From Candidatus Uhrbacteria bacterium (GTDB lineage Bacteria > Patescibacteriota > Patescibacteriia > UBA9934 > GWF2-40-263): a stretch of DNA of 64,000 bases. The stretch's first letter is position 1, and every line of letters begins with the position of its first letter. The notes under the pieces were generated by a model, which was given only the letters and a program-made list of their open reading frames with translations, searched no databases and was not told the DNA's origin. Shown piece after piece: positions 6,559 through 14,986 of this stretch. The stretch spans positions 209,432 to 273,431 of the forward strand of contig JAPLZK010000004.1 in the NCBI GenBank assembly GCA_026395055.1, in the 5' to 3' direction. Both the position numbers and the translations under genes were made by a program.

Positions 6559-7461
6559 TTATGTTTCATTGCGAGGAGTCATTGACGAAGCGATCTTTTC
6601 GCCCGTTTCGGGACTGACGGTTTCCTGTTTAACCAAAGGGCCTCGCGTTTCTCTTAGATGTTTATACAGGAGCGTCATGTACGTTGCAAGCAGAGGGATT
6701 GCAACGATTTCTACGATGGATTGTAAGAGATCAAGCCAAGCAGGGAGTTGATTTTGTGCGGCAATTTTTACAGGATCTACTCCAGCTGCCGCGCCGGAAA
6801 TGGAGATGATGAGCGCGACGATGACAGAATAAACAAATCCAATAAGGACAGGTCCTCCAACCAGACGATAAAGAACAGAGAAGAATCTTCCCTCAGAAAG
6901 TGATCGACTAAATTTAAGAGCTTCCATTCCGTGTTTACCATCCAGCACAGCAGACGTTTGGGCAAATGCAAACCAAATGATCGCAATGAATCCTGGAATG
7001 ATGAGAAGGATAAAACCGAGAAGGACGAGCAGAATGTGCAAGAGGAGAACGCGTGCTGTGGGTTGTAAAAGCGTTTTGGAATATTTTTTAAGCCCCATGG
7101 CATCAAACGGTTGTTTTTCTACAAGGGCGTTTACAATCAAAATCAAAATGATTCCAGTCCAGAAGGTGATCATGAATTCTGCAACAGAACACAGAAGATC
7201 AAGTGTGACGACGATAGGATTTTGTTCTGGAAAAAAACTTAAAACAAAATAACCGGCAAATGGAAGAAGAAGCCACGCTGTGTAACCAATCATCAGCCAA
7301 AAATTTGAGCGATACAATTGTAGGCTTAGGAAAACAAGATCGAGCGGAGAACGAAGCGGTGTCTTATTCCTGCCTGCCGGCAGGCTAGGCGCTTTGTTCG
7401 GTGAGGCTTTGGTAAAGGAGAACATCAGATAAGAAAATAAGTGGATTGAGAAAAATCGCAA
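6559..7461 (-). CDS. polytopic integral membrane protein, paralog A of the adjacent gene
   Basis: Multiple TM helices. The shared motif is (K/M)EALK.SR.L(T/S)EG(K/R)F(W/F)SVL. The true start may be an internal Met at 7425 or 7293, because the ORF-track start overlaps the upstream paralog. Confidence 0.6.
   Translation of the reverse strand: MRFFSIHLFSYLMFSFTKASPNKAPSLPAGRNKTPLRSPLDLVFLSLQLYRSNFWLMIGYTAWLLLPFAGYFVLSFFPEQNPIVVTLDLLCSVAEFMITFWTGIILILIVNALVEKQPFDAMGLKKYSKTLLQPTARVLLLHILLVLLGFILLIIPGFIAIIWFAFAQTSAVLDGKHGMEALKFSRSLSEGRFFSVLYRLVGGPVLIGFVYSVIVALIISISGAAAGVDPVKIAAQNQLPAWLDLLQSIVEIVAIPLLATYMTLLYKHLRETRGPLVKQETVSPETGEKIASSMTPRNET
7366..7392. repeat. GC-rich palindrome GCCTGCCGGCAGGC, copy 1
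   Basis: Perfect 14-bp palindrome at 7372-7385, overlapping the stop of the 7385..8263 gene. Copy 2 is at 8301-8327. Confidence 0.5.
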
Positions 7462-8263
7462 GGAGCATTGGGAGGATGGACGCAGTGAGTTCGCCTATGC
7501 GTTGTTGAACATCTAAGTTTAATCCTGTTGCGTTGATGATAAACGTGTTCAAAACAAGATTGATGAGAAGGATGATGAGAGCACCAAACAAGACGAAAAC
7601 CAGTTTTGGCAAAACAATACGAGCAAGGACACTCCAGAATTTTCCTTCTGTAAGGGTTCGGCTCTTTTTAAGAGCCTCTTTGTTTTTTGCGCGATCCAAA
7701 ATGGCTGCATAGGGCGCCATCATGTAATAAAGCGTCCATTTGGAAGTAAGAATTACGCTCACAATGAGTCCGATGATCAAAAGTCCATTTGCGACTCCAA
7801 GAATCCATGCGTTTTGCATCCAAAATCCGACAGCACCAAGAAGGAGGGAAGGACCGAGAGTGATCACTTGTGCAAGAAGGAGCGTGAGTCCAACAAGAGC
7901 GGTCACCGCAAGAGCTGGGAAATAACGTCTTTTGGTTTCTCTCATGACACTTGTAATACTCATTTGTTCACCGCGCAAAACAGATTTTGCTCCAATGGCG
8001 AGGGAAACGAAAACCCAGAAGCCTAAGAGGGGAGAAAGAATGATGTTCGTGAATCCGTATAAGATAACCCCCGTCACTTCATTAAAGGAAAAATTGGTAT
8101 GATACGCAATAGCACCTGCATTTGGATAAAGCAGTGTTGCAACCGCATTCAGAATGGCAATAAGGATGAGCCAACCTGAGAGTTGTAAAAAGAACGGAAG
8201 AGAAGAGCGATATTTATTCCACGATTGGTCAATAAGATCGCCGATGGAAATGAGAGGTTTCAT
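7385..8263 (-). CDS. polytopic integral membrane protein, paralog B
   Basis: About 290 aa with many TM helices. N- and C-terminal regions align with paralog A. Confidence 0.7.
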   Translation of the reverse strand: MKPLISIGDLIDQSWNKYRSSLPFFLQLSGWLILIAILNAVATLLYPNAGAIAYHTNFSFNEVTGVILYGFTNIILSPLLGFWVFVSLAIGAKSVLRGEQMSITSVMRETKRRYFPALAVTALVGLTLLLAQVITLGPSLLLGAVGFWMQNAWILGVANGLLIIGLIVSVILTSKWTLYYMMAPYAAILDRAKNKEALKKSRTLTEGKFWSVLARIVLPKLVFVLFGALIILLINLVLNTFIINATGLNLDVQQRIGELTASILPMLLAIFLNPLIFLSDVLLYQSLTEQSA

Positions 8264-8300: not shown

Positions 8301-8327
8301 TAGGCTTGCCTGCCGGCAGGCAGGGAT
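8301..8327. repeat. GC-rich palindrome TGCCTGCCGGCAGGCA, copy 2
   Basis: Perfect 16-bp palindrome at 8307-8322, directly 3' of dut. Together with copy 1 it brackets paralog B. Confidence 0.5.
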
Positions 8328-8764
8328 TAGTGGCCGGTTGATCCAAAACCACCACGATCTGGTTTCTCGAGCATCTCAACAACGTTAAACGATGCTTTGA
8401 TGATTGGCATGATCATGCCTTGTGCTAGACGATCTCCTTTTGTGACGGTTACGGGGGTGTTTGTGAAATTGATGAGTTGCAGGAGAATTTCGTCATTTGG
8501 CCCACAATAGTCTTCATCAACAATTCCAATACCTTGAACAACCGTAAGGCCGAACTTTTTTGGGAGGGATGAACGAGCCGCTACGACGAGAACGTGGTTT
8601 TGCGGTGTGCAGATAACCAAACCCGTTCGAAGCCGAACGATCTCGCCCGGCGCAATTGTTGCGTTTTCGATGGTTGAGAGATCAAACGCACATGAACCGG
8701 GTGTTTTGTATTCTGGCAAGATGCCGTCAGGATGACATAGAAAGATGTCCACAGGGATGTTCAT
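8327..8764 (-). CDS. dut: dUTP diphosphatase
   Basis: 145 aa with dUTPase motifs (AR.SSL....L...G.ID.DY.G, GDR.AQ, RGGFGSTG). Confidence 0.88.
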   Translation of the reverse strand: MNIPVDIFLCHPDGILPEYKTPGSCAFDLSTIENATIAPGEIVRLRTGLVICTPQNHVLVVAARSSLPKKFGLTVVQGIGIVDEDYCGPNDEILLQLINFTNTPVTVTKGDRLAQGMIMPIIKASFNVVEMLEKPDRGGFGSTGH

Positions 8765-8829: not shown

Positions 8830-9696
8830 ATGAAAGCGTATCTTGACCTTGTGAATAAGATTCTGGACACAGGAATCGTGAAACCGACCCGTACGGGTAC
8901 GGATACCGTTGCGATTGCTGGCGCCATGTTTGAACATGATATGCGGGACGGATTCCCCATGCTTACAACAAAGAAAGTTCCGTTGCGATTGCCGGCCATT
9001 GAACTCGAATTTTTTTTGAATGGAAAAACAGATAAGGCTTGGCTCCAAGAACGCAATAGTCATATTTGGGACGAATGGTGCGCGCCGCATATTGTTCCGT
9101 ATGGCCACGATGCGGAGACAAAGGCTCGCATGCGCGAAGAGCGTGAACTTGGCCCCATCTACGGATTTCAATGGCGACACTTCGGTGCGGATTACGTCGA
9201 TCATCAAACGGATTATTCCGGACAAGGTGTTGATCAAATTGCAAAGCTTGTTGAAACATTGAAACGAGATCCGCATGATCGACGCATGATTGTGAGTGCA
9301 TGGAATCCGGCAGCGCTTCATCAGATGGCGTTACCTCCTTGCTATTACGGATTTCAGGTCACGGTTTTGAACGGACGAGTGAATGTGCTCTGGAGTCAGC
9401 GATCGGTTGATGTTGCACTCGGTTTGCCGTTCGACATTGTTGCACATGGACTTTTGCTGCATCTCCTCGCAAAGGAATCAGGACTGAAAGAAGGAAGGCT
9501 CGTCGGATTTTTGGGAGATGCGCATGTGTACACGAATCACATCGACGGACTAAGACAACAACTTTCTCGAGAGCCTGCGACATTACCACAGATTCGAACC
9601 GAGAATTTTACATCGATCTTTGATTGGAAACATACGGATACGACCGTCAAGGATTACAATCCGCATCCAAGTATTAAATTTGAGATTGCGATATGA
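8830..9696 (+). CDS. thyA: thymidylate synthase, ThyA-type
   Basis: MKAYLDLV...DRTGTGT-like N-terminus, LPPC active-site Cys, DRRMIVSAWNP. The start is the ATG at 8830. Confidence 0.9.
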   Translation: MKAYLDLVNKILDTGIVKPTRTGTDTVAIAGAMFEHDMRDGFPMLTTKKVPLRLPAIELEFFLNGKTDKAWLQERNSHIWDEWCAPHIVPYGHDAETKARMREERELGPIYGFQWRHFGADYVDHQTDYSGQGVDQIAKLVETLKRDPHDRRMIVSAWNPAALHQMALPPCYYGFQVTVLNGRVNVLWSQRSVDVALGLPFDIVAHGLLLHLLAKESGLKEGRLVGFLGDAHVYTNHIDGLRQQLSREPATLPQIRTENFTSIFDWKHTDTTVKDYNPHPSIKFEIAI

Positions 9697-10196
9697 AGGT
9701 TGAACTTATTGCGGCGATGTCGCTCAACGGCAAAATTGCCGCGTCATCCGACCAGTCTTCACTTGAGTGGACCTCCAAAGAGGACACCAAGTTTTTTGTT
9801 GAAAAAACAAAAGAGTGTCGTGTCATGATTATGGGTCGAAAAACATTCGACACAATCGGTCGTGCATTGAAAGATCGATTGATTGTTGTGATGACATGCG
9901 ATCCTGAGAAACACGCGTTGATCGAAGGGGTTGAATATACGTGCGAGACGCCGCATCAGATTCTTAAGGATCTCGAATCACGAGGATATGCTTCGGTTGC
10001 GATTGCGGGTGGTGCGGGTGTTTACTCGATGTTCTTGAAAGAGAAGTTGGTTACGGATGTATTCCTCAGTATTGAACCGATTCTTTTTGGAAATGGAATT
10101 TCGCTTGCAGAATCGTTTGAAGATGTTAAGCTCAAGCTTGTTGAATCCAAACAGCTAGGAGAGCAAACCGTTCTCCTGCATTACGAGGTTGTATGA
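9693..10196 (+). CDS. folA: dihydrofolate reductase family protein (DHFR / RibD_C-like)
   Basis: 167 aa: ELIAAMSLNGKIA, MGRKTFDTIG, AGGAGVYSMFL. ATGA overlap with thyA. Confidence 0.65.
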   Translation: MKVELIAAMSLNGKIAASSDQSSLEWTSKEDTKFFVEKTKECRVMIMGRKTFDTIGRALKDRLIVVMTCDPEKHALIEGVEYTCETPHQILKDLESRGYASVAIAGGAGVYSMFLKEKLVTDVFLSIEPILFGNGISLAESFEDVKLKLVESKQLGEQTVLLHYEVV

Positions 10197-11095
10197 TCGA
10201 ATATCCTTATCTTCCACCAAATCGTGGATTCAAATTTGTTCCTTTGAATGATCCTCACATGATGGCCGCAGAAGTTGCTCGTCGCGAATGCGCGGGTGAT
10301 TCTCTCTGGCCGATTGGAATTGTTCTTGTTCGCGATGGTGAAATTCTCGCGCGTGCGGGAAACGGATTTAATCGGGGAAGTTCCTCGAAGCACATTTGCC
10401 CTCGCGTTGTTCTCGAATGTTCAAGCGGAACCGGTTACGATCTGTGCAAACTTCACGACTCGATCGGTCACGCAGAACCCATGCTCATGCAAGTTGCGGT
10501 TGACCAGGGAATCGATCCAATGGGGTGCGATGTCTACATGTTCGGTCACTGGTGGTGTTGCGAGCCGTGCTGGAAAGCCATGATCGATGCGGGAGTGAAA
10601 GATGTTTATGTTCTCGACGATGCTCACGAGAGATTCTCTCGTGAGAATGTGTTTGCCGAGACATTAACTTCGAGTGTTCGTTCAATTTTTTTCTCGCATG
10701 CATTCGATCAAACAAACCTCGCGGAGATGAAAGAACTCATTGGCACACTTGATGCGATGTGCGTTGAGCTTGGGTGTTCGACTACCATTCCATTTCGAGA
10801 TGGGCCTCTCGACGAACTCGCGCAAGAACACAACGAAGATGTGTTGTATCGATGGAGTGAACAACAGATTCCAATCTGTGACGTGCTCATCGCCGAAGTT
10901 TCCAATCCATCTCTTGGTGTTGGCGGTGAGATTGTTCTCGCCGAGAAGTTCGAGAAGCCTGTGATTCTTCTTTCAAAAAAGGGAATAAGGGTTTCTGAAT
11001 TTGTGACGGGGAATCCGGCGGTGGTGTACCATGTCGAGTATGAATCGATTATGGATGCGGTGAAGCAAGTGAGAAATGTGTTGAAGCAATTGTAA
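10193..11095 (+). CDS. dCMP deaminase domain fused to a 2'-deoxynucleoside-5'-phosphate N-hydrolase (DNPH1/Rcl, nucleoside deoxyribosyltransferase-like) domain
   Basis: N-terminal half has the zinc motifs HAE...CEPCWKAMIDAGVKDV (cf. PCNECAKLIIQAGIKEV of dCMP deaminases). C-terminal half has SIFFSHAF...LIAEVSNPSLGVGGEI...KPVILL (cf. DNPH1 AEVTQPSLGVGYELG...KPIL). Confidence 0.75.
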   Translation: MIEYPYLPPNRGFKFVPLNDPHMMAAEVARRECAGDSLWPIGIVLVRDGEILARAGNGFNRGSSSKHICPRVVLECSSGTGYDLCKLHDSIGHAEPMLMQVAVDQGIDPMGCDVYMFGHWWCCEPCWKAMIDAGVKDVYVLDDAHERFSRENVFAETLTSSVRSIFFSHAFDQTNLAEMKELIGTLDAMCVELGCSTTIPFRDGPLDELAQEHNEDVLYRWSEQQIPICDVLIAEVSNPSLGVGGEIVLAEKFEKPVILLSKKGIRVSEFVTGNPAVVYHVEYESIMDAVKQVRNVLKQL

Positions 11096-11098
11096 ACG

Positions 11099-11127
11099 AA
11101 AACGACCCATGCGGGGTCGTTTTTTTC
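11099..11127 (+). terminator. intrinsic terminator aaaacgaccc-atgc-ggggtcg + T7
   Basis: Strong hairpin immediately after the TAA at 11093-11095. Confidence 0.7.
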
Positions 11128-11204
11128 TTATGTATGTTGTTGACAATTAGGAATGGTGATGATACATCAGGTTAATCATGAGCGGCAAAAATCGGAGGTG
11201 TGCC

Positions 11205-11549
11205 ATGGCAAGTTCTGCAGATACATTGTGTCCCAAATGTCAGAAAGTCATGAAACTCGTCAAGGAAGATATTCATCTTGATCCCAGCTTTTGCCCGGAG
11301 ATCACGCACGGATTCACGCTGAAGGAAACGCCAACTCTGAAATGCGATGATTGCGATCTGTGGTTTCACACTCCAGATGTTTACGAGAGGCTTTTGAAAG
11401 TCTCTTGCGATCCGGAGGATGTGCAAGCGATGTTGAAAATGCATGAGAACGAATTGCTGATTTTGTTCCGTCGTTTTCCGGAACCCGCAAAGACGAATCG
11501 TTGTCTAACGTGCGGCACAATCATACAAGAAGCAACGCCCTCTCTCTAA
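11205..11549 (+). CDS. hypothetical Cys-rich zinc-ribbon protein
   Basis: CPKC...CDDC...CLTC pairs. The start was moved to MASSADT. Confidence 0.55.
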   Translation: MASSADTLCPKCQKVMKLVKEDIHLDPSFCPEITHGFTLKETPTLKCDDCDLWFHTPDVYERLLKVSCDPEDVQAMLKMHENELLILFRRFPEPAKTNRCLTCGTIIQEATPSL

Positions 11550-11570
11550 CATCCGCACGTGGATGTTTTT

Positions 11571-13166
11571 TTATTTCAATATCTTCGCCTTCCTCAACAC
11601 CTCCCTCGGCGTATCCTTATATGGATGCAGTTTCCCCAGCGCCTTCAATGCCTGTTCCTTCGTAATAAATCCAACCGTGACTTCGCGCGCGAGTCTCGTA
11701 CTGTCCGGATGAAACCCAAGCAGGCGCTTTGCCATGCGCTCGGTGGATCGTGCAAACAGACAGGAGTTCGAATTCGATTCAATAAAATCTTCGCCGACGG
11801 GTGGTGTCCATCCAATTTTTTTCAACATCGCTTTTGTTTCTCGACTGGTTCGTTGTAACAGAAACGGAAGATGAAACACATACACAGCCGGTTTGTTTTT
11901 ATACGGTTGTAATTTTCTGACACCTGAAACTTTATATTCTTTTCCCGATTGCGCCGCACTCAAGTTTGTCCACTCGTTGATTCCAAGAACGATCGCGCGT
12001 GCACCGCGTTTCAGTGTCTCGTCATAATATGCGCGAATCACCATGCGACGACAAAGCTGGCAGGTGCGCACGAAGATTGGTGAATGTTTACACTTCACGG
12101 AATAATGTTTGCGTCCTTCTGCGTACGCTTTTTGAAACGCAAGCTTTGTCTCGAGTGTGAAGGGTTTCTCGTAAAGTGCGACGGTCTTCTCGTACGAAGC
12201 GTGATCGATTGGTCGAATGTAAGAGCGAATGTCGATCTCCTCGTGCGGAGTCTCGAGTAGCTTCGCCATTTCTTTTGATCGCGGCATAGTCGTGCGTGGA
12301 AGATATCCAAGATTGAATGTGACGGCGAGGGGATTGAATCCCATTTGTTTGATCGAAAGCAATGTGGCTGTGCTGTCTTTGCCGCCCGAGAGTCCGACGA
12401 GAATGTCGTGGTCATTCGATCCGGTACCGATGAAGGATTCAAGAAACTCGAGTTCTTCTTGCAAATGTGTTGGGTCGAAATGTGTTTGATAGGTATCGCA
12501 AATATGACAGAGGCCATTTTTCATGAACCGAATTGCGGGATTGCGCGCGGTGTTCACACAGTGTGTACACATTTGGTTCCATTGCTTAATGGTGTCTTCA
12601 ATGAGCTTGGCTGATCGATCTATACTCATTGTAGTTGTGTCGATTACAAGATTCGCGATCTTCTCAATTTGTTTTGTTTGATAAAGCACTTGTTCTTTTT
12701 TGAGTTCATCGACGGCTTGTTGTTTTGTATATCCGCGAGATTTCATTAAGCGACGAATGGCCGTTTGGTCGTCGACTTTGAGATAGACAACGAAGTCGTT
12801 ATGCAATCGACAATACTTTGCGTTGTCGATTCCGCGCAATCCACTAAAGACAAGCGTGGGTTGTTTTGAGTTCTCGAGAAATAACTCATGCAGAGCGCGT
12901 GCAATAAAGTCCGCACCATATTTCAATCGCAAGCGATCAAACATGTTCATGGCGTCTTCGCGAGATGCAAATGATTTGCGTTTCGAGAGTTGTCTCAGTT
13001 GTTCGATTAGCGTTTCCTCGTTCGGTAATTTCTTAACATGCGCAGCGATGGGGAATACGACCGCAGTCGAGGCTTCGATCACGCGCGCATGTAATCGCTC
13101 GGCAATGTTTTGTGCGAGTGTGGATTTTCCACTTCCAGGTTGTCCGAAGAGGGCGATGCGAATCAT
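11571..13166 (-). CDS. fusion protein: N-terminal P-loop nucleotide-kinase-like domain + zinc finger + PP-loop ATP pyrophosphatase domain (TtuA/NcsA/TtcA-like tRNA sulfurtransferase family)
   Basis: GQPGSGKSTLA Walker A at the N-terminus. CTHC...CHIC zinc finger, then the SGGKDS PP-loop, then C...CQLC and a later Cys as candidate Fe-S ligands. Confidence 0.7.
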   Translation of the reverse strand: MIRIALFGQPGSGKSTLAQNIAERLHARVIEASTAVVFPIAAHVKKLPNEETLIEQLRQLSKRKSFASREDAMNMFDRLRLKYGADFIARALHELFLENSKQPTLVFSGLRGIDNAKYCRLHNDFVVYLKVDDQTAIRRLMKSRGYTKQQAVDELKKEQVLYQTKQIEKIANLVIDTTTMSIDRSAKLIEDTIKQWNQMCTHCVNTARNPAIRFMKNGLCHICDTYQTHFDPTHLQEELEFLESFIGTGSNDHDILVGLSGGKDSTATLLSIKQMGFNPLAVTFNLGYLPRTTMPRSKEMAKLLETPHEEIDIRSYIRPIDHASYEKTVALYEKPFTLETKLAFQKAYAEGRKHYSVKCKHSPIFVRTCQLCRRMVIRAYYDETLKRGARAIVLGINEWTNLSAAQSGKEYKVSGVRKLQPYKNKPAVYVFHLPFLLQRTSRETKAMLKKIGWTPPVGEDFIESNSNSCLFARSTERMAKRLLGFHPDSTRLAREVTVGFITKEQALKALGKLHPYKDTPREVLRKAKILK

Positions 13167-13195: not shown

Positions 13196-13229
13196 AAAGA
13201 AAACGACCCAAAGCGGGTCGTTTTTTTTA
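13196..13229. terminator. bidirectional intrinsic terminator aaaacgaccc-aaag-cgggtcg + T8
   Basis: Hairpin flanked by A and T runs. It sits 3' of dcd on the minus strand. Confidence 0.7.
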
Positions 13230-13883
13230 CAGTTTATATTTATTTTTCATTTCCCCAAGCGTTCCTTTAACAAGGTGTTGTCTCTCCTCATCCTTATCGA
13301 GCTTGTACGCCCCTGAATCAATGTTCGTATACTTTGCAGCACTCACGCCGTGGAGGTTTGCTTCTTCGATCGACAGCGACGACGCGAGTTCTTCGAAAAT
13401 CACCTGACACACACGTTCACCTGGGTACACACGAATAACTTGGTTGCCCGCTTCGTTTTTCATGGGAAAAATCAGATGGCCTTTGTAGCCGTTGTCGATA
13501 ATTCCGGAGAGGGAGAGATCAATCCCTCTTCGATTGGTCGATGTACGAGGAAACAGAATCGCCATCAGGTTTGGCGCATTGATCTCGACTGATTCAAGTG
13601 AAGTACCGATCACGAATTCGTTTGGGAGGAGCTCAAAAAATTGTCCGGGTTTCAAAATAACTTCTTCGAACTGTTCGCGATGACGTTCAACATCATCGAT
13701 AGAAATGTTAATGGCGCGTCGACCCGATTCATCAATCACCCAGTTTTTGGGAATCAGAAATTTATAGCCAAGTCGAAGATCAATGGCATGTGGTTGTAAT
13801 TGGAATGCATCAATCTCGGGATCAAAGGTGATTTCATGTTTCTCGATAGCAACCAGAATTTCGTGTTTTGTTAATACAGACAT
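13227..13883 (-). CDS. dcd: dCTP deaminase (Dcd/dUTPase-fold)
   Basis: N-terminal ILVAIEKHEI.F.P....QLQPHAIDLRLGYKF and GIIDNGYKGHL motifs. Confidence 0.8.
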   Translation of the reverse strand: MSVLTKHEILVAIEKHEITFDPEIDAFQLQPHAIDLRLGYKFLIPKNWVIDESGRRAINISIDDVERHREQFEEVILKPGQFFELLPNEFVIGTSLESVEINAPNLMAILFPRTSTNRRGIDLSLSGIIDNGYKGHLIFPMKNEAGNQVIRVYPGERVCQVIFEELASSLSIEEANLHGVSAAKYTNIDSGAYKLDKDEERQHLVKGTLGEMKNKYKL

Positions 13884-14160: not shown

Positions 14161-14200
14161 TTCCCCCGCCTTCACAAGGAGGGGGTTAGGGGGTGGTCAG
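14161..14200. repeat. REP-like hairpin element, copy 1, on the minus strand, overlapping the tmk stop
   Basis: The reverse complement reads ctGACCACCCCCTAACCCCCTCCTTGTGAAGGCGGGGGAA. Copies 2 and 3 are at 37718-37765 and 62452-62488. Confidence 0.5.
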
Positions 14201-14911
14201 TAGTTCTGAGATGAGTGCTACGGCGTTTGCTTGCGACTCTTCCAGTGTTTTGCTTGTATCTAATGTGTGAATCTTTGTTCCGTGTGACTCGAACAGCTCG
14301 CGAAACCAAGGTTCGCGATAACGTGCGTCTACACGACGCGCGAGTTCAACGTCCGCAAACACACCTGCTGCGCCTTGAGATGCAGGACGCAATCGAATGC
14401 GATCCACAACGCGTTCAACAGGTGTTGAAGTCAGAATGAGGTGATGAGGTGCGTGTTCAAGAGCGAGTTTGTTTCCCGGAAGATTCAAAATCTGCTCGAG
14501 TGACAAGCTGTATGGCTGGATTGGCTGATAAATGATCGACGTTGAAACGCCACGATCTTGCACGACGGTCTTACCCGCCTTGAGAGCGGGAAGAATCAAT
14601 CGGAGATACATGATTTGGCGATCAAGGGCGAATGCGTGTGCGAGCTCTTCACCCCCATACGGATGTTCCGTTTGCGACATTTCCTCTCGGAGTGCTGCAC
14701 CAATCCATTGTCGAGTAGGTTCAAACACAAAGTACACATCGAAATCCGCGATCTCTGCGAAGGTTGGTGGACGTTCACCTTTCCAGTCTTGTAAACGGAA
14801 ACAGCGCAAGCCTTTGGCTTGTAGCGTGTTGAACATTGCTTGAATGACGGTGGTTTTGCCACTGCCAACAATGCCGTCGATGAGAATGAAGTTGCCGGTG
14901 TTCATCAGCAT
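14186..14911 (-). CDS. tmk: thymidylate kinase-like (d)NMP kinase
   Basis: FILIDGIVGSGKTT P-loop and a Tmk-like DR(G) segment. The start was moved to MLMNTGNF, downstream of the rplA terminator. Confidence 0.7.
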   Translation of the reverse strand: MLMNTGNFILIDGIVGSGKTTVIQAMFNTLQAKGLRCFRLQDWKGERPPTFAEIADFDVYFVFEPTRQWIGAALREEMSQTEHPYGGEELAHAFALDRQIMYLRLILPALKAGKTVVQDRGVSTSIIYQPIQPYSLSLEQILNLPGNKLALEHAPHHLILTSTPVERVVDRIRLRPASQGAAGVFADVELARRVDARYREPWFRELFESHGTKIHTLDTSKTLEESQANAVALISELLTTP

Positions 14912-14952
14912 AGGCCTTGTGTGCATGACGCACGACAAAAGTGTACAAAACA

Positions 14953-14986
14953 AAAAACATCCGCGCAAGGCGGATGTTTTTTGTTT
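14953..14986 (-). terminator. intrinsic terminator aaaaaacatccgc-gcaa-ggcggatgtttttt
   Basis: Immediately 3' of the rplA stop on the minus strand. Confidence 0.65.

What the first reader, a model, noticed from the sequence alone, without database searches (positions are those of the whole stretch)
10193..11095. dCMP deaminase fused to a DNPH1/Rcl-like dNMP N-glycosidase domain inside a dTMP-synthesis cluster
The N-terminal ~150 aa carry the zinc-dependent dCMP deaminase signature. The HAE motif and CEPC with WKAMIDAGVKDV align with PCNECAKLIIQAGIKEV.

The C-terminal ~140 aa carry the hallmark of the 2'-deoxynucleoside-5'-phosphate N-hydrolase / nucleoside deoxyribosyltransferase fold. AEVSNPSLGVGGEI and KPVILL compare with DNPH1 AEVTQPSLGVGYELG and KPIL.

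The gene sits in an operon-like run: dut, thyA, a DHFR-like gene, then this gene.

Such a fusion could channel dCMP to dUMP and then to uracil plus deoxyribose-5-P, which would be nucleotide scavenging typical of reduced genomes. Alternatively it could act on a modified pyrimidine nucleotide, compare the MilA/MilB ThyA-like plus NDT-like pairing. It could also deplete dNMP pools.
Basis: partly seen in the sequence, partly recalled or inferred. Interest (0 to 1): 0.6.

Follow-up and report, generated by a model that had tools for sequence, protein, structure and literature searches.

The report
Deaminase fusion in unusual thymidylate operon
A candidate-phylum bacterium (Uhrbacteria) encodes a real two-domain enzyme, a dCMP-type deaminase joined to a DNPH1-like nucleotide-cleaving domain, directly behind a thymidylate synthase with a cytosine-type base-recognition residue; this suggests the cells make thymidylate by methylating dCMP first and deaminating afterwards, a route so far described only for phages.

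Summary

The interpretation needs revising because of the neighbours. The gene is the last of a translationally coupled operon, thyA-folA-fusion. This ThyA has Asp at the E. coli Asn177 position and Tyr at His147, but keeps every feature needed for reductive methylation. All 69 ThyA homologues beside this deaminase in related genomes have Asp177, in two separate ThyA lineages. The window's lineage sits inside an otherwise Asn177/His147 clade. The nearby dCTP-deaminase homologue has Pro in place of its catalytic Glu in all 65 orthologues.

Best reading, inferred and not assayed: dCMP is methylated to 5-methyl-dCMP, and the deaminase domain converts it to dTMP. The C-terminal domain probably removes an unwanted dNMP such as dUMP or 5-hm-dUMP. 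In this window its catalytic Glu and both phosphate-binding Ser are kept, but the Tyr and Asp of the DNPH1 triad are Phe and Ser. New variant of a known (phage) pathway.

The parts
10193..11095 (+). Fusion gene, 300 aa: dCMP-deaminase-clade domain plus DNPH1/MilB-like N-glycosidase domain
10193..10672 (+). Deaminase domain (aa 1-160). Catalytic His93-Ala-Glu95 at 10469-10477. Zn ligands Cys123 and Cys126 at 10559-10570, within the family motif GHWW[AC]CxxCW. Probable second, structural Zn site His67/Cys69/Cys85/His88 at 10391-10456.
10673..11092 (+). DNPH1-like domain (aa 161-300). Motif PSLGVGGE at 10907-10930, with Ser240 and the nucleophile-equivalent Glu246. Ser268 at 10994-10996 matches DNPH1 Ser128. 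Phe166 at 10688-10690 stands in place of DNPH1 Tyr24. Ser222 at 10856-10858 stands in place of Asp80.
8830..9696 (+). thyA homologue with Asp202 (the E. coli Asn177 position; codon 9433-9435) and Tyr172 (the His147 position; 9343-9345). Predicted dCMP C5-methyltransferase.
   Evidence: 269 bits to TS 6k7q; the alignment shows 'alppcYygfq' against 'alppcHclcq' and 'lglpfDiva' against 'lgvpfNias'. Leu at -3 of the catalytic Cys, Trp83 and the C-terminal tail KFEIAI are retained. Nearest non-Uhrbacteria relatives are His/Asn.
9693..10196 (+). folA (DHFR), overlapping thyA and the fusion gene by 4 nt each
   Evidence: T. maritima DHFR 1cz3, E=4.4e-29 over the full length. Pfam DHFR_1 65.7 bits. 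ATGA overlaps.
11098..11124 (+). Terminator-like hairpin plus T-run that closes the thyA-folA-fusion operon
   Evidence: 11-pair stem followed by a T tail. Consensus scan only.
8327..8764 (-). dut (dUTPase), divergent from thyA
   Evidence: TIGR00576 106.7 bits, above the 102.55 cut-off.
13227..13883 (-). dCTP-deaminase-like gene in which the deamination Glu (E. coli Glu138) is Pro140 (13464-13466). Conserved partner of the module.
   Evidence: HMMER aligns 'ghlifPmkn' with 'gqitlElfn' (4xjc) and 'ghitlElsn' (2qlp). Pro in 65 of 65 orthologues. Below the TIGR02274 cut-off.
14186..14968 (-). tmk (thymidylate kinase), a conserved member of the neighbourhood
   Evidence: Pfam Thymidylate_kin 60.3 bits. 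Synteny in related loci.

Best explanation
The gene encodes a bifunctional enzyme that serves a non-canonical thymidylate pathway. Step 1 (inferred from residue signatures): the upstream ThyA homologue, with Asp at the pyrimidine-specificity position, methylates dCMP rather than dUMP to give 5-methyl-dCMP and dihydrofolate. The co-translated DHFR recycles the dihydrofolate. Step 2 (inferred from fold, gene order and phage precedent): the N-terminal zinc deaminase domain deaminates the 5-methyl-deoxycytidine nucleotide to the thymidine nucleotide, most simply 5-methyl-dCMP to dTMP, which Tmk then phosphorylates. Step 3 (inferred, weakest): the C-terminal DNPH1/MilB-like domain binds a nucleoside 5'-monophosphate and cleaves its N-glycosidic bond through Glu246. 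It would act as a sanitiser for a dNMP this pathway cannot use. One candidate is dUMP, coming from Dut or from off-target deamination of dCMP. Another is 5-hydroxymethyl-dUMP, arising from water capture on the TS intermediate followed by deamination. What is shown directly: the ORF, both folds, the conserved catalytic residues, the fusion's conservation, the operon structure, and the Asp177 and Pro138 substitutions with their conservation.
For: - **Fold and catalytic residues of both domains:**
- **Operon structure:** thyA, folA and the fusion are coupled by ATGA overlaps and followed by a terminator-like hairpin.
- **Synteny:** tmk-(dut)-thyA-dhfr-deaminase-dcd-like-L1 recurs in most of the 80 related loci. 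More distant Patescibacteria have thyA-dhfr-dcd-fusion on one strand. Triple DHFR-deaminase-NDT fusions sit in the same slot.
- **Asp177 conservation:** ThyA has Asp at the Asn177 column in 69 of 69 neighbouring homologues, in two lineages only 26-31% identical to each other. It is also Asp in 119 of 120 cluster representatives of the divergent lineage.
- **Independent origin of Asp177:** the window's ThyA lineage is nested in a canonical clade. The 5 closest representatives are Tyr147/Asp177, and the next 115 (73% identity or less) are Asn177. This looks like a canonical TS recruited into the slot and changed at exactly the two specificity positions.
- **Literature on position 177:** Asn177Asp switches TS from dUMP to dCMP and yields 5mdCMP. 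Positions 177 and 147 are the two most discriminating positions for modified-cytosine contigs (PMC8670742). Asp is found in cytosine-using MilA, BcmA and T4 CH, and Asn in uracil-using enzymes (PMC5175136).
- **Methylase rather than hydroxymethylase:** Leu at -3 of the Cys, no Ser/Thr-x-Tyr, Trp83, a TS C-terminal tail and an adjacent genuine DHFR.
- **Phage precedent:** Asp177 TS genes in cis with dCMP-deaminase-family genes; 5 of 7 such TS made 5mdCMP, and one deaminase is 5mC-selective and yields dT nucleotides (bioRxiv 10.1101/2024.12.05.627091).
- **dUMP supply route disabled:** the usual Dcd route has lost its deaminase Glu in 65 of 65 orthologues.
- **Functional coupling of the deaminase:** the same GHWW[AC]C deaminase is fused elsewhere to DHFR, Tmk and a P-loop kinase. 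It is also fused to three different nucleotide-hydrolase folds: NDT-like (also in reverse domain order), HAD and HD.
- **Human parallel:** DCTD makes hmdUMP and DNPH1 destroys it (PMC13184875).
- **C-domain under selection:** between window and L001, pN is 0.10 against 0.18 for the N-domain, with pS about 0.75.
Against: - No enzyme was assayed. Substrate assignments rest on one well-studied specificity residue plus context.
- Whether these genomes hold an Asn177 ThyA or a ThyX elsewhere could not be checked. Only the 64-kb window and loci of at most 17 kb were available; none was found there.
- The one biochemically characterised phage 5mC-selective deaminase works on triphosphates and not on 5mdCMP, so the phosphorylation level of the substrate here is open.
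- The window's deaminase has no close phage relative, and viral relatives are not next to ThyA.
- In the window, the DNPH1 Tyr and Asp are Phe166 and Ser222. The Tyr-to-Phe change cost rat DNPH1 280-fold in kcat/KM (PMC10483697).
- About 45% of related loci carry 207-238-aa forms without the catalytic motif, so the C-domain is dispensable.
- A functional dut is kept, which produces dUMP with no obvious consumer.
- The divergent ThyA lineage has Asn, not Leu, three residues before the Cys, so its chemistry is less certain than that of the window's ThyA.
Confidence: 0.5

Rival explanations
1. Canonical pathway with a salvage add-on. The deaminase makes dUMP from dCMP, the ThyA methylates dUMP despite Asp177, and the C-domain degrades surplus dNMPs to base plus deoxyribose-5-phosphate for scavenging.
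For: The deaminase's closest solved relatives are ordinary dCMP deaminases. dut is present and functional-looking. All databases annotate the ThyA as thymidylate synthase. DNPH1 hydrolyses dUMP slowly (PMC10483697).
Against: Asp at position 177 is invariant in two independent ThyA lineages and was newly acquired, together with His147Tyr, in a recruited canonical TS. That is hard to explain without selection for a cytosine substrate (PMC8670742). The Dcd homologue has lost its deaminase Glu. A hydrolase that destroyed dUMP would also work against a dUMP-dependent TS fused in the same operon.
Confidence: 0.15
2. Xp12-like system in a cell. 5-methyl-dCMP is phosphorylated to 5mdCTP and built into DNA in bulk. 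The Pro-variant Dcd-like protein acts as a dCTP pyrophosphatase, as T4 gp56 does, both excluding dCTP and feeding dCMP. The deaminase diverts part of the 5mdC pool, possibly at the triphosphate level, to make dT nucleotides.
For: The gene set resembles the phage set for full cytosine replacement: an Asp177 TS, a dUTPase-fold protein without the deaminase Glu, a deaminase, and kinases. mSCD-B5 deaminates 5mdCTP and not 5mdCMP. The same deaminase family is fused to nucleotide kinases elsewhere.
Against: There is no evidence on DNA composition. The Dcd-like activity is unknown. The tight coupling of TS, DHFR and deaminase (including physical fusions with DHFR) fits monophosphate channelling better. 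The DNPH1-like domain binds monophosphates.
Confidence: 0.1
3. MilA/MilB-like hydroxymethyl route. ThyA hydroxymethylates dCMP, the deaminase gives 5-hm-dUMP, and the DNPH1-like domain releases 5-hydroxymethyluracil (or 5-hmC) as a free base for some other product.
Against: The hydroxymethylase signature is absent: no Asp/Glu three residues before the Cys, no conserved Ser/Thr-x-Tyr, and the TS C-terminal tail is present. A genuine DHFR is translationally coupled, and hydroxymethylases release THF, not DHF. MilA's ribose-specific Lys/Ala are Arg/Ser here. MilB's P-F-(R/K) motif is not conserved. The operon sits with tmk in a housekeeping region.
Confidence: 0.05
4. In this lineage the C-terminal domain no longer catalyses anything. 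It is kept as a nucleotide-binding regulatory module or an oligomerisation module for the deaminase. This can be combined with steps 1-2 of the best explanation.
For: Tyr-to-Phe and Asp-to-Ser changes at two of the three DNPH1 triad positions. The closest relatives with the same ThyA type have lost the catalytic core but kept the last strand and helix. NDT-fold proteins are obligate dimers with shared active sites. dCMP deaminases are normally allosteric enzymes (established knowledge).
Against: Glu246, Ser240, Gly242, Ser268 and the Tyr279-His280 pair are retained. The domain is more conserved than the deaminase domain within the subclade. Active MilB and BcmB also carry Phe at the Tyr position (Sikowitz 2013, recalled from memory and not re-read). 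About half of the family lacks the Asp yet keeps Tyr and Glu.
Confidence: 0.2

Closest known systems
Phage 5-methylcytosine route: Xp12-type dCMP methyltransferase (Asp177 TS homologue) with an in-cis dCMP-deaminase-family enzyme (mSCD; bioRxiv 10.1101/2024.12.05.627091)
   Same: An Asp177 TS homologue sits next to a PF00383 deaminase. The proposed logic is the same: methylate the cytosine nucleotide first, then deaminate to a thymine nucleotide, with no need for a dUMP-dependent TS.
   Different: Here the module is chromosomal and syntenic across a whole bacterial lineage, next to ribosomal-protein genes. It is coupled to DHFR and Tmk. The deaminase belongs to a distinct GHWW[AC]C subfamily with no close phage relative. 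It also carries a DNPH1-like domain. There is no evidence that the DNA contains bulk 5mC.
Human DCTD followed by DNPH1 (nucleotide-pool sanitation of 5-hm-dC-derived nucleotides)
   Same: The same two enzyme families act consecutively: a dCMP deaminase produces a non-canonical dUMP derivative, and DNPH1 cleaves its glycosidic bond (PMC13184875). DNPH1 is the best sequence-profile match of the C-domain.
   Different: In humans these are two separate proteins, and here they are one polypeptide. The window protein lacks the DNPH1 Tyr24 and Asp80 equivalents. The substrate here is unknown.
MilA/MilB and BcmA/BcmB (CMP hydroxymethylase plus hmCMP N-glycosidase in nucleoside-antibiotic synthesis)
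   Different: The TS residues here are deoxyribose-type and the signature is methylase, not hydroxymethylase. A deaminase is interposed. The MilB Arg/Lys that reads the 5-substituent is absent. The context is housekeeping rather than secondary metabolism.
T4 dNTP-synthesis set: gp56 dCTPase/dUTPase, gp42 dCMP hydroxymethylase, cd dCMP deaminase, frd, td
   Same: The parts list is similar: a dUTPase-fold enzyme, an Asp-type TS homologue, a dCMP deaminase and a DHFR.
   Different: T4 also keeps a separate Asn-type TS for dTMP and uses hydroxymethylation. Here only an Asp-type TS is seen in the locus. The Dcd-like protein is of the dCTP-deaminase branch, with its Glu replaced by Pro.
Bifunctional DHFR-TS of protozoa
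   Same: Consecutive enzymes of the thymidylate cycle are physically fused. Triple DHFR-deaminase-NDT and DHFR-deaminase fusions exist in this family.
   Different: The fused partners differ: here a deaminase and an N-glycosidase rather than TS.

Membership tests
dCMP deaminase (CDA-fold, ComEB/DCTD clade, PF00383) | H-A-E motif with the catalytic Glu, and two Cys zinc ligands (PCxxC) | tested here: met
   His93-Ala-Glu95, Cys123 and Cys126 are invariant in 74-76 homologues. The Pro of PCxxC is replaced, giving GHWW[AC]CxxCW.
dCMP deaminase (CDA-fold, ComEB/DCTD clade, PF00383) | Closest relatives by profile and by fold are dCMP deaminases rather than TadA, CDA or RibD | tested here: met
dCMP deaminase (CDA-fold, ComEB/DCTD clade, PF00383) | Second, structural zinc site typical of dCMP deaminases | tested here: inconclusive
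   His67/Cys69/Cys85/His88 are invariant, and the two Cys align with Cys residues of S. mutans dCD. Metal binding itself is not testable here.
dCMP deaminase (CDA-fold, ComEB/DCTD clade, PF00383) | Reaches the curated equivalog score (NCBIfam ComEB TIGR02571) | tested here: not met
   19.3 bits against a cut-off of 219.45. It is a distinct subfamily.
dCMP deaminase (CDA-fold, ComEB/DCTD clade, PF00383) | Deaminates dCMP (as opposed to 5-methyl-dCMP or triphosphates) | not testable with these tools
   Needs an enzyme assay.
DNPH1/Rcl (2'-deoxynucleoside 5'-phosphate N-hydrolase; NDT superfamily, PF05014) | NDT/flavodoxin-like fold | tested here: met
DNPH1/Rcl (2'-deoxynucleoside 5'-phosphate N-hydrolase; NDT superfamily, PF05014) | Nucleophilic Glu (human Glu104) in the PSLGVGxE motif | tested here: met
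   Glu246 aligned to Glu104; present in 75 of 76 family members.
DNPH1/Rcl (2'-deoxynucleoside 5'-phosphate N-hydrolase; NDT superfamily, PF05014) | 5'-phosphate-binding Ser98, and Ser128 from the partner subunit | tested here: met
   Ser240 (74 of 76) and Ser268 (68 of 76) align with them. Their roles are taken from PMC10483697.
DNPH1/Rcl (2'-deoxynucleoside 5'-phosphate N-hydrolase; NDT superfamily, PF05014) | Tyr24, hydrogen-bonded to the nucleophile | tested here: not met
   Phe166 in the window and its subclade; Tyr in 70 of 76 family members.
DNPH1/Rcl (2'-deoxynucleoside 5'-phosphate N-hydrolase; NDT superfamily, PF05014) | Asp80, the general acid/base | tested here: not met
   Ser222 in the window. 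Asp in only 24 of 76 close homologues, more often in distant ones.
DNPH1/Rcl (2'-deoxynucleoside 5'-phosphate N-hydrolase; NDT superfamily, PF05014) | Pfam gathering score for PF05014 | tested here: not met
   26.2 bits against 28.8 for the single sequence. The family profile nevertheless matches DNPH1 at E=4e-11.
dCMP C5-methyltransferase type of the TS family (EC 2.1.1.54; adjacent ThyA) | Asp at the E. coli Asn177 position | tested here: met
   69 of 69; 119 of 120.
dCMP C5-methyltransferase type of the TS family (EC 2.1.1.54; adjacent ThyA) | Hydride-transfer (methylase) features: Leu at -3 of the Cys, Trp83, C-terminal tail, no Ser/Thr-x-Tyr | tested here: met
   All met in the window ThyA, using criteria from PMC6400193. 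The divergent lineage has Asn at -3 and Phe83 but keeps the tail.
dCMP C5-methyltransferase type of the TS family (EC 2.1.1.54; adjacent ThyA) | Produces 5-methyl-dCMP and DHF from dCMP | not testable with these tools
   Needs an enzyme assay. The adjacent genuine DHFR is indirect support.
MilA/MilB-type pair | Ribonucleotide specificity residues (MilA Lys133'/Ala176) and the MilB P-F-(R/K) reader of the 5-hydroxymethyl group | tested here: not met
   ThyA has Arg and Ser at those positions ('drrm', 'qrsvd'). The C-domain loop is H-A-F-D in the window and G-x-[LI]-T-N in the family.
dCTP deaminase (Dcd; neighbour gene 13227-13883) | Catalytic Glu (E. coli Glu138) | tested here: not met
   Pro140 in the window and Pro in 65 of 65 orthologues. 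TIGR02274 scores 87.4, below the 92.8 cut-off.

The most novel reading that the evidence does not exclude
Uhrbacteria and related Patescibacteria have no dUMP-dependent thymidylate synthesis at all. They run a phage-like cytosine-replacement chemistry as their housekeeping pathway. The Pro-variant Dcd-like protein strips dCTP to dCMP, the Asp177 ThyA methylates it, and a large share of 5-methyl-dC nucleotides goes into DNA, so the genome carries bulk 5-methylcytosine. The fused deaminase makes all thymine from 5-methylcytosine nucleotides, and its DNPH1-like domain clears dUMP. This would be the first cellular lineage with a wholesale non-canonical pyrimidine in DNA.
Probability: 0.08. Interest if true: 0.95.

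Novelty: new variant of a known kind. Interest (0 to 1): 0.7.

Why it matters
Textbook dTMP synthesis in cells goes through dUMP (ThyA or ThyX). A methylate-then-deaminate route via 5-methyl-dCMP has been proposed only for phages whose DNA carries 5mC.

If the inference holds, a large, uncultured bacterial lineage uses that route as its core pathway. Three signs point that way:
- the specificity switch Asn177Asp is fixed in two independent ThyA lineages;
- the dCTP-deaminase homologue is catalytically rewired;
- a dedicated deaminase family is repeatedly fused to DHFR, Tmk and nucleotide hydrolases.

This would change metabolic reconstructions of CPR genomes, where all of these genes are annotated as ordinary thymidylate synthase or dCTP deaminase. 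It would also raise the question of whether these cells avoid dUMP and dUTP pools or carry 5mC in DNA.

The fusion would offer a natural one-chain analogue of the human DCTD-DNPH1 sanitising pair. It could also be a source of deaminases acting on 5-methylcytosine nucleotides, which are of practical interest for methylome sequencing.

All of this is directly testable with three recombinant proteins and an E. coli thyA complementation.

Tried and rejected
1. **GenBank phages, protein mode.** The ThyA has no close phage relative (44% identity or less). The deaminase domain gave one weak hit in Xanthomonas phage Pfeifenkraut. That hit lies on the strand opposite to all annotated genes and is treated as chance.
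2. **IMG/VR scan with the family alignment.** It returned 21 weak deaminase relatives. None is next to a ThyA homologue and only two carry the HWWAC motif, so no link to the phage Asp177 systems could be made.
3. **BFVD fold search.** Only single-domain matches; no viral two-domain analogue.
4. **Domain decay in this lineage.** This idea was rejected. Deviations from consensus are few (4 of 39) and shared by the subclade. The domain is more conserved than the deaminase domain against its nearest relative.
5. **C-domain presence and a neighbouring dut.** No correlation: 15 with and 12 without dut among full-length forms, against 19 and 13 among short forms.
6. **A separately encoded C-domain in short-form genomes.** None found within 8 kb either side.
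7. **A second ThyA, ThyX or deaminase in the window.** None. One RHR..S motif lies in a shadow frame. Whole genomes could not be searched.
8. **Unavailable resources.** The afdb50 fold library was unavailable. The mSCD preprint has no held supplements, so no sequence comparison with mSCD-B5 was possible. Hardy & Nalivaika 1992 is not held.
9. **Literature searches.** Searches for the fusion, or for Patescibacteria together with TS and dCMP, found nothing. CPR papers treat thyA as canonical.
Full report
**1. The observation**

Window 10193-11095 (+) is an intact 300-aa ORF with an ATG start. Pfam places PF00383 (cytidine/deoxycytidylate deaminase) on aa 24-140, at E=9.4e-10 and above the gathering score. 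It places PF05014 (nucleoside 2-deoxyribosyltransferase) on aa 179-263, at E=9.6e-6 and 26.2 bits, just under the 28.8-bit cut-off.

A single-sequence search of PDB finds rat and human DNPH1/Rcl for aa 205-262 and S. mutans dCMP deaminase for aa 23-139. Profiles built from relatives sharpen both results:
- The C-terminal half matches DNPH1 at E=4e-11, ahead of BcmB (1e-5), MilB (1e-4) and true NDTs (4e-4).
- The N-terminal half matches dCMP deaminases first: 2hvv at 2.4e-10, then cyanophage S-TIM5, human DCTD and T4. These come before TadA and RibD.

**2. Residues**

In the deaminase domain, His93-Ala-Glu95, Cys123 and Cys126 are invariant. So is a His67/Cys69/Cys85/His88 set, which aligns with the extra cysteines of S. 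mutans dCMP deaminase and probably forms a structural zinc site. The usual PCxxC is replaced by a family-specific GHWW[AC]CxxCW motif.

In the C-domain, several DNPH1 positions are kept across the family (roles from PMC10483697):
- the nucleophile Glu104 equivalent, Glu246, in 75 of 76 members;
- the phosphate-binding Ser98 equivalent, Ser240;
- the partner-subunit Ser128 equivalent, Ser268.

Tyr24 is kept in 70 of 76 family members but is Phe166 in the window. Asp80 is Ser222 in the window and is Asp in only 24 of 76 members.

The window's four departures from the family consensus are Phe166, His169, Asp172 and Phe201. All lie around the active-site loop and are shared by its closest relatives. 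The domain is nevertheless under purifying selection in that subclade. Against L001 it shows 85% identity and pN 0.10, compared with 74% and 0.18 for the deaminase domain, with synonymous sites saturated. This is a conserved variant active site and not a decaying one.

**3. Distribution**

The protein is identical to an NCBI 'hypothetical protein' of a Candidatus Uhrbacteria MAG. About a hundred 90%-identity clusters of ~300-aa fusions exist in Uhrbacteria and Parcubacteria-type metagenome bins. 187 places in the GTDB species-representative genome contigs encode a relative. Variants include:
- DHFR-deaminase-NDT triple fusions (P0072, P0073);
- 207-238-aa forms in which the catalytic core of the C-domain is deleted but its last strand and helix remain.

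An exhaustive profile search found several further forms, all with the GHWW[AC]C motif:
- stand-alone versions of each half;
- the same deaminase fused to DHFR, Tmk and a P-loop kinase;
- the same deaminase fused to a HAD hydrolase and to an HD hydrolase;
- the same deaminase fused to the NDT-like domain in the opposite order (P0255).

Two independent fusion orders argue that the two activities are functionally linked. Fusion to three different nucleotide-hydrolase folds suggests that disposal of some nucleotide accompanies the deaminase.

**4. Context**

thyA (8830-9696), folA (9693-10196) and the fusion gene overlap by ATGA at both junctions.

The DHFR is genuine: T. maritima DHFR matches at E=4e-29. 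The order tmk-(dut)-thyA-dhfr-deaminase ... dcd-like-L1-L11 recurs in most of 80 related loci. In more distant Patescibacteria, thyA-dhfr-dcd-like-fusion lie on one strand (Pfam-annotated example).

**5. The key finding lies next door**

The ThyA is a strong canonical-type TS, at 269 bits to 6k7q. Yet the HMMER alignment shows Asp where all TS have Asn (E. coli Asn177) and Tyr where they have His147.

Asn177Asp is the classic switch of TS from dUMP to dCMP, giving 5-methyl-dCMP. Positions 177 and 147 are the two positions that best separate TS homologues of modified-cytosine phage contigs from ordinary ones (PMC8670742). Asp marks cytosine-using MilA, BcmA and T4 dCMP hydroxymethylase (PMC5175136).

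Several counts support selection for Asp at this position:
- All 69 ThyA homologues adjacent to this deaminase family have Asp at that column.
- They belong to two lineages only 26-31% identical to each other.
- The divergent lineage has Asp177/Pro147 in 119-120 of 120 cluster representatives, all annotated simply 'thymidylate synthase'.
- The window's lineage is nested in a canonical clade. Its 5 closest representatives (77% identity or more) are Tyr147/Asp177. The next 115 (73% or less, from Bacteroidota, Treponema, DPANN archaea and other Patescibacteria) are Asn177.

The simplest reading is that a canonical TS displaced the resident gene and was then changed at exactly the two specificity positions. 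This amounts to a natural repeat of the N177D experiment.

The published hydroxymethylase signature is absent. That signature is Asp/Glu three residues before the catalytic Cys, Ser/Thr-x-Tyr, and no C-terminal tail (PMC6400193). The window ThyA has Leu, Pro-x-Tyr, Trp83 and the tail KFEIAI. The divergent lineage has Asn (T4 D145N is inactive), variable T/A/C, Phe83 and a TS-like tail. With a coupled DHFR, reductive methylation of dCMP is the best prediction.

**6. A second rewired neighbour**

The 'dCTP deaminase' at 13227-13883 aligns with solved Dcd enzymes, but its catalytic Glu is Pro. It is Pro in all 65 orthologues, and the protein falls below the NCBIfam equivalog cut-off. The usual route to dUTP and dUMP is therefore also disabled. 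The protein's activity is unknown. By analogy with T4 gp56, a dCTP or 5mdCTP pyrophosphatase is a reasonable guess (inference).

**7. Mechanism proposed**

- dCMP is methylated to 5-methyl-dCMP by ThyA-Asp177, and DHFR recycles the DHF.
- The deaminase domain converts 5-methyl-dCMP to dTMP.
- Tmk phosphorylates dTMP to dTDP.

The precedent comes from phages. Asp177 TS genes occur in cis with dCMP-deaminase-family genes. [quoted passage not shown] That enzyme needs triphosphates, so the phosphorylation level here remains open.

The C-domain most likely cleaves a nucleoside monophosphate that this pathway cannot use. The candidates are:
- dUMP, from Dut or from off-target dCMP deamination;
- 5-hm-dUMP, which parallels human DCTD followed by DNPH1 (PMC13184875).

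This step is the least certain. The window protein has Phe and Ser at the DNPH1 Tyr and Asp positions, and Tyr-to-Phe cost rat DNPH1 280-fold. From memory, and not re-read here, active MilB and BcmB carry Phe at that position and it sets ribo versus deoxy preference (Sikowitz 2013). About 45% of related loci lack the domain's core, so it is an accessory function.

**8. Rivals**

- **Canonical dCMP to dUMP to dTMP with a salvage hydrolase.** Disfavoured by the fixed and independently acquired Asp177 and by the Glu-less Dcd.
- **Xp12-like bulk 5mC in DNA with triphosphate-level deamination.** Not excluded; this is the most novel reading.
- **MilA/MilB-like hydroxymethyl route.** Disfavoured by the methylase signature, the DHFR, deoxy-type residues and the housekeeping context.
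- **Non-catalytic C-domain.** Possible for this subclade, but the retained Glu and Ser residues and strong conservation argue against it.

**9. Limits**

Nothing was assayed. Whole genomes could not be screened for a second TS or ThyX. Only the window and short loci were available, and they contain none. No paper in the searchable library describes the fusion or an Asp177 ThyA in Patescibacteria. Absence from that library is not proof of novelty.

**10. Verdict**

The finding is a genuine, conserved fusion of known folds. Its significance lies less in dNMP scavenging than in marking a probable cellular version of the phage 5-methyl-dC route to thymidylate. I rate it a new variant of a known kind, interest 0.7.

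Noticed in passing
window 13227-13883 (-); orthologues in L002-L080: The dCTP-deaminase homologue has Pro140 (codon 13464-13466) where Dcd enzymes have the catalytic Glu. It is Pro in 65 of 65 orthologues, and the protein scores below the NCBIfam dCTP_deam cut-off. Its activity is unknown; a dCTP or 5mdCTP pyrophosphatase is one possibility.
   Followed up: partly
window 8830-9696 (+): All sources annotate this ThyA and its relatives as plain thymidylate synthase. It nevertheless carries Asp at the Asn177 position and Tyr at the His147 position, and only its 5 closest cluster representatives share this pair.
   Followed up: yes
window 11571-13166 (-): A 531-aa ORF combines an N-terminal P-loop nucleotide-kinase-like domain (cytidylate-kinase-like, AAA_17/18) with a C-terminal PP-loop ATPase (WbuX/QueC-like). 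It is inserted between the fusion gene and the dcd-like gene only in the window and in L026.
   Followed up: partly
window 11178-11549 (+): A 123-aa Cys-rich (zinc-ribbon-like) ORF with no significant family match, followed by a terminator-like hairpin at 11548-11567.
   Followed up: no
L003 4127-7303 (-) and about 25 other loci: In many related genomes a 3.5-4 kb insert separates dhfr from the deaminase gene, breaking the tight operon seen in the window. It encodes a ~1058-aa low-complexity, Glu/Ala/Thr-rich protein plus two small coiled-coil-like ORFs on the opposite strand.
   Followed up: no
P0255, P0296, P0303, P0280, P0358, P0322, P0328 (metagenome proteins): The same GHWW[AC]C deaminase occurs fused to an NDT-like domain in reverse order, to a P-loop kinase, to a HAD hydrolase, to an HD domain, to thymidylate kinase and to DHFR.
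   Followed up: partly
L007, L011, L013, L014, L016 and others (genome contigs records): Many records titled 'uncultured Gammaproteobacteria bacterium' carry the Uhrbacteria-type gene order and proteins. The titles look like mislabelled MAG taxonomy.
   Followed up: no
window 6559-8263 (-): Two paralogous multi-pass membrane proteins lie between gatB and dut. One relative hits UPF0259 in L082. They are conserved in the same position in most related loci.
   Followed up: no
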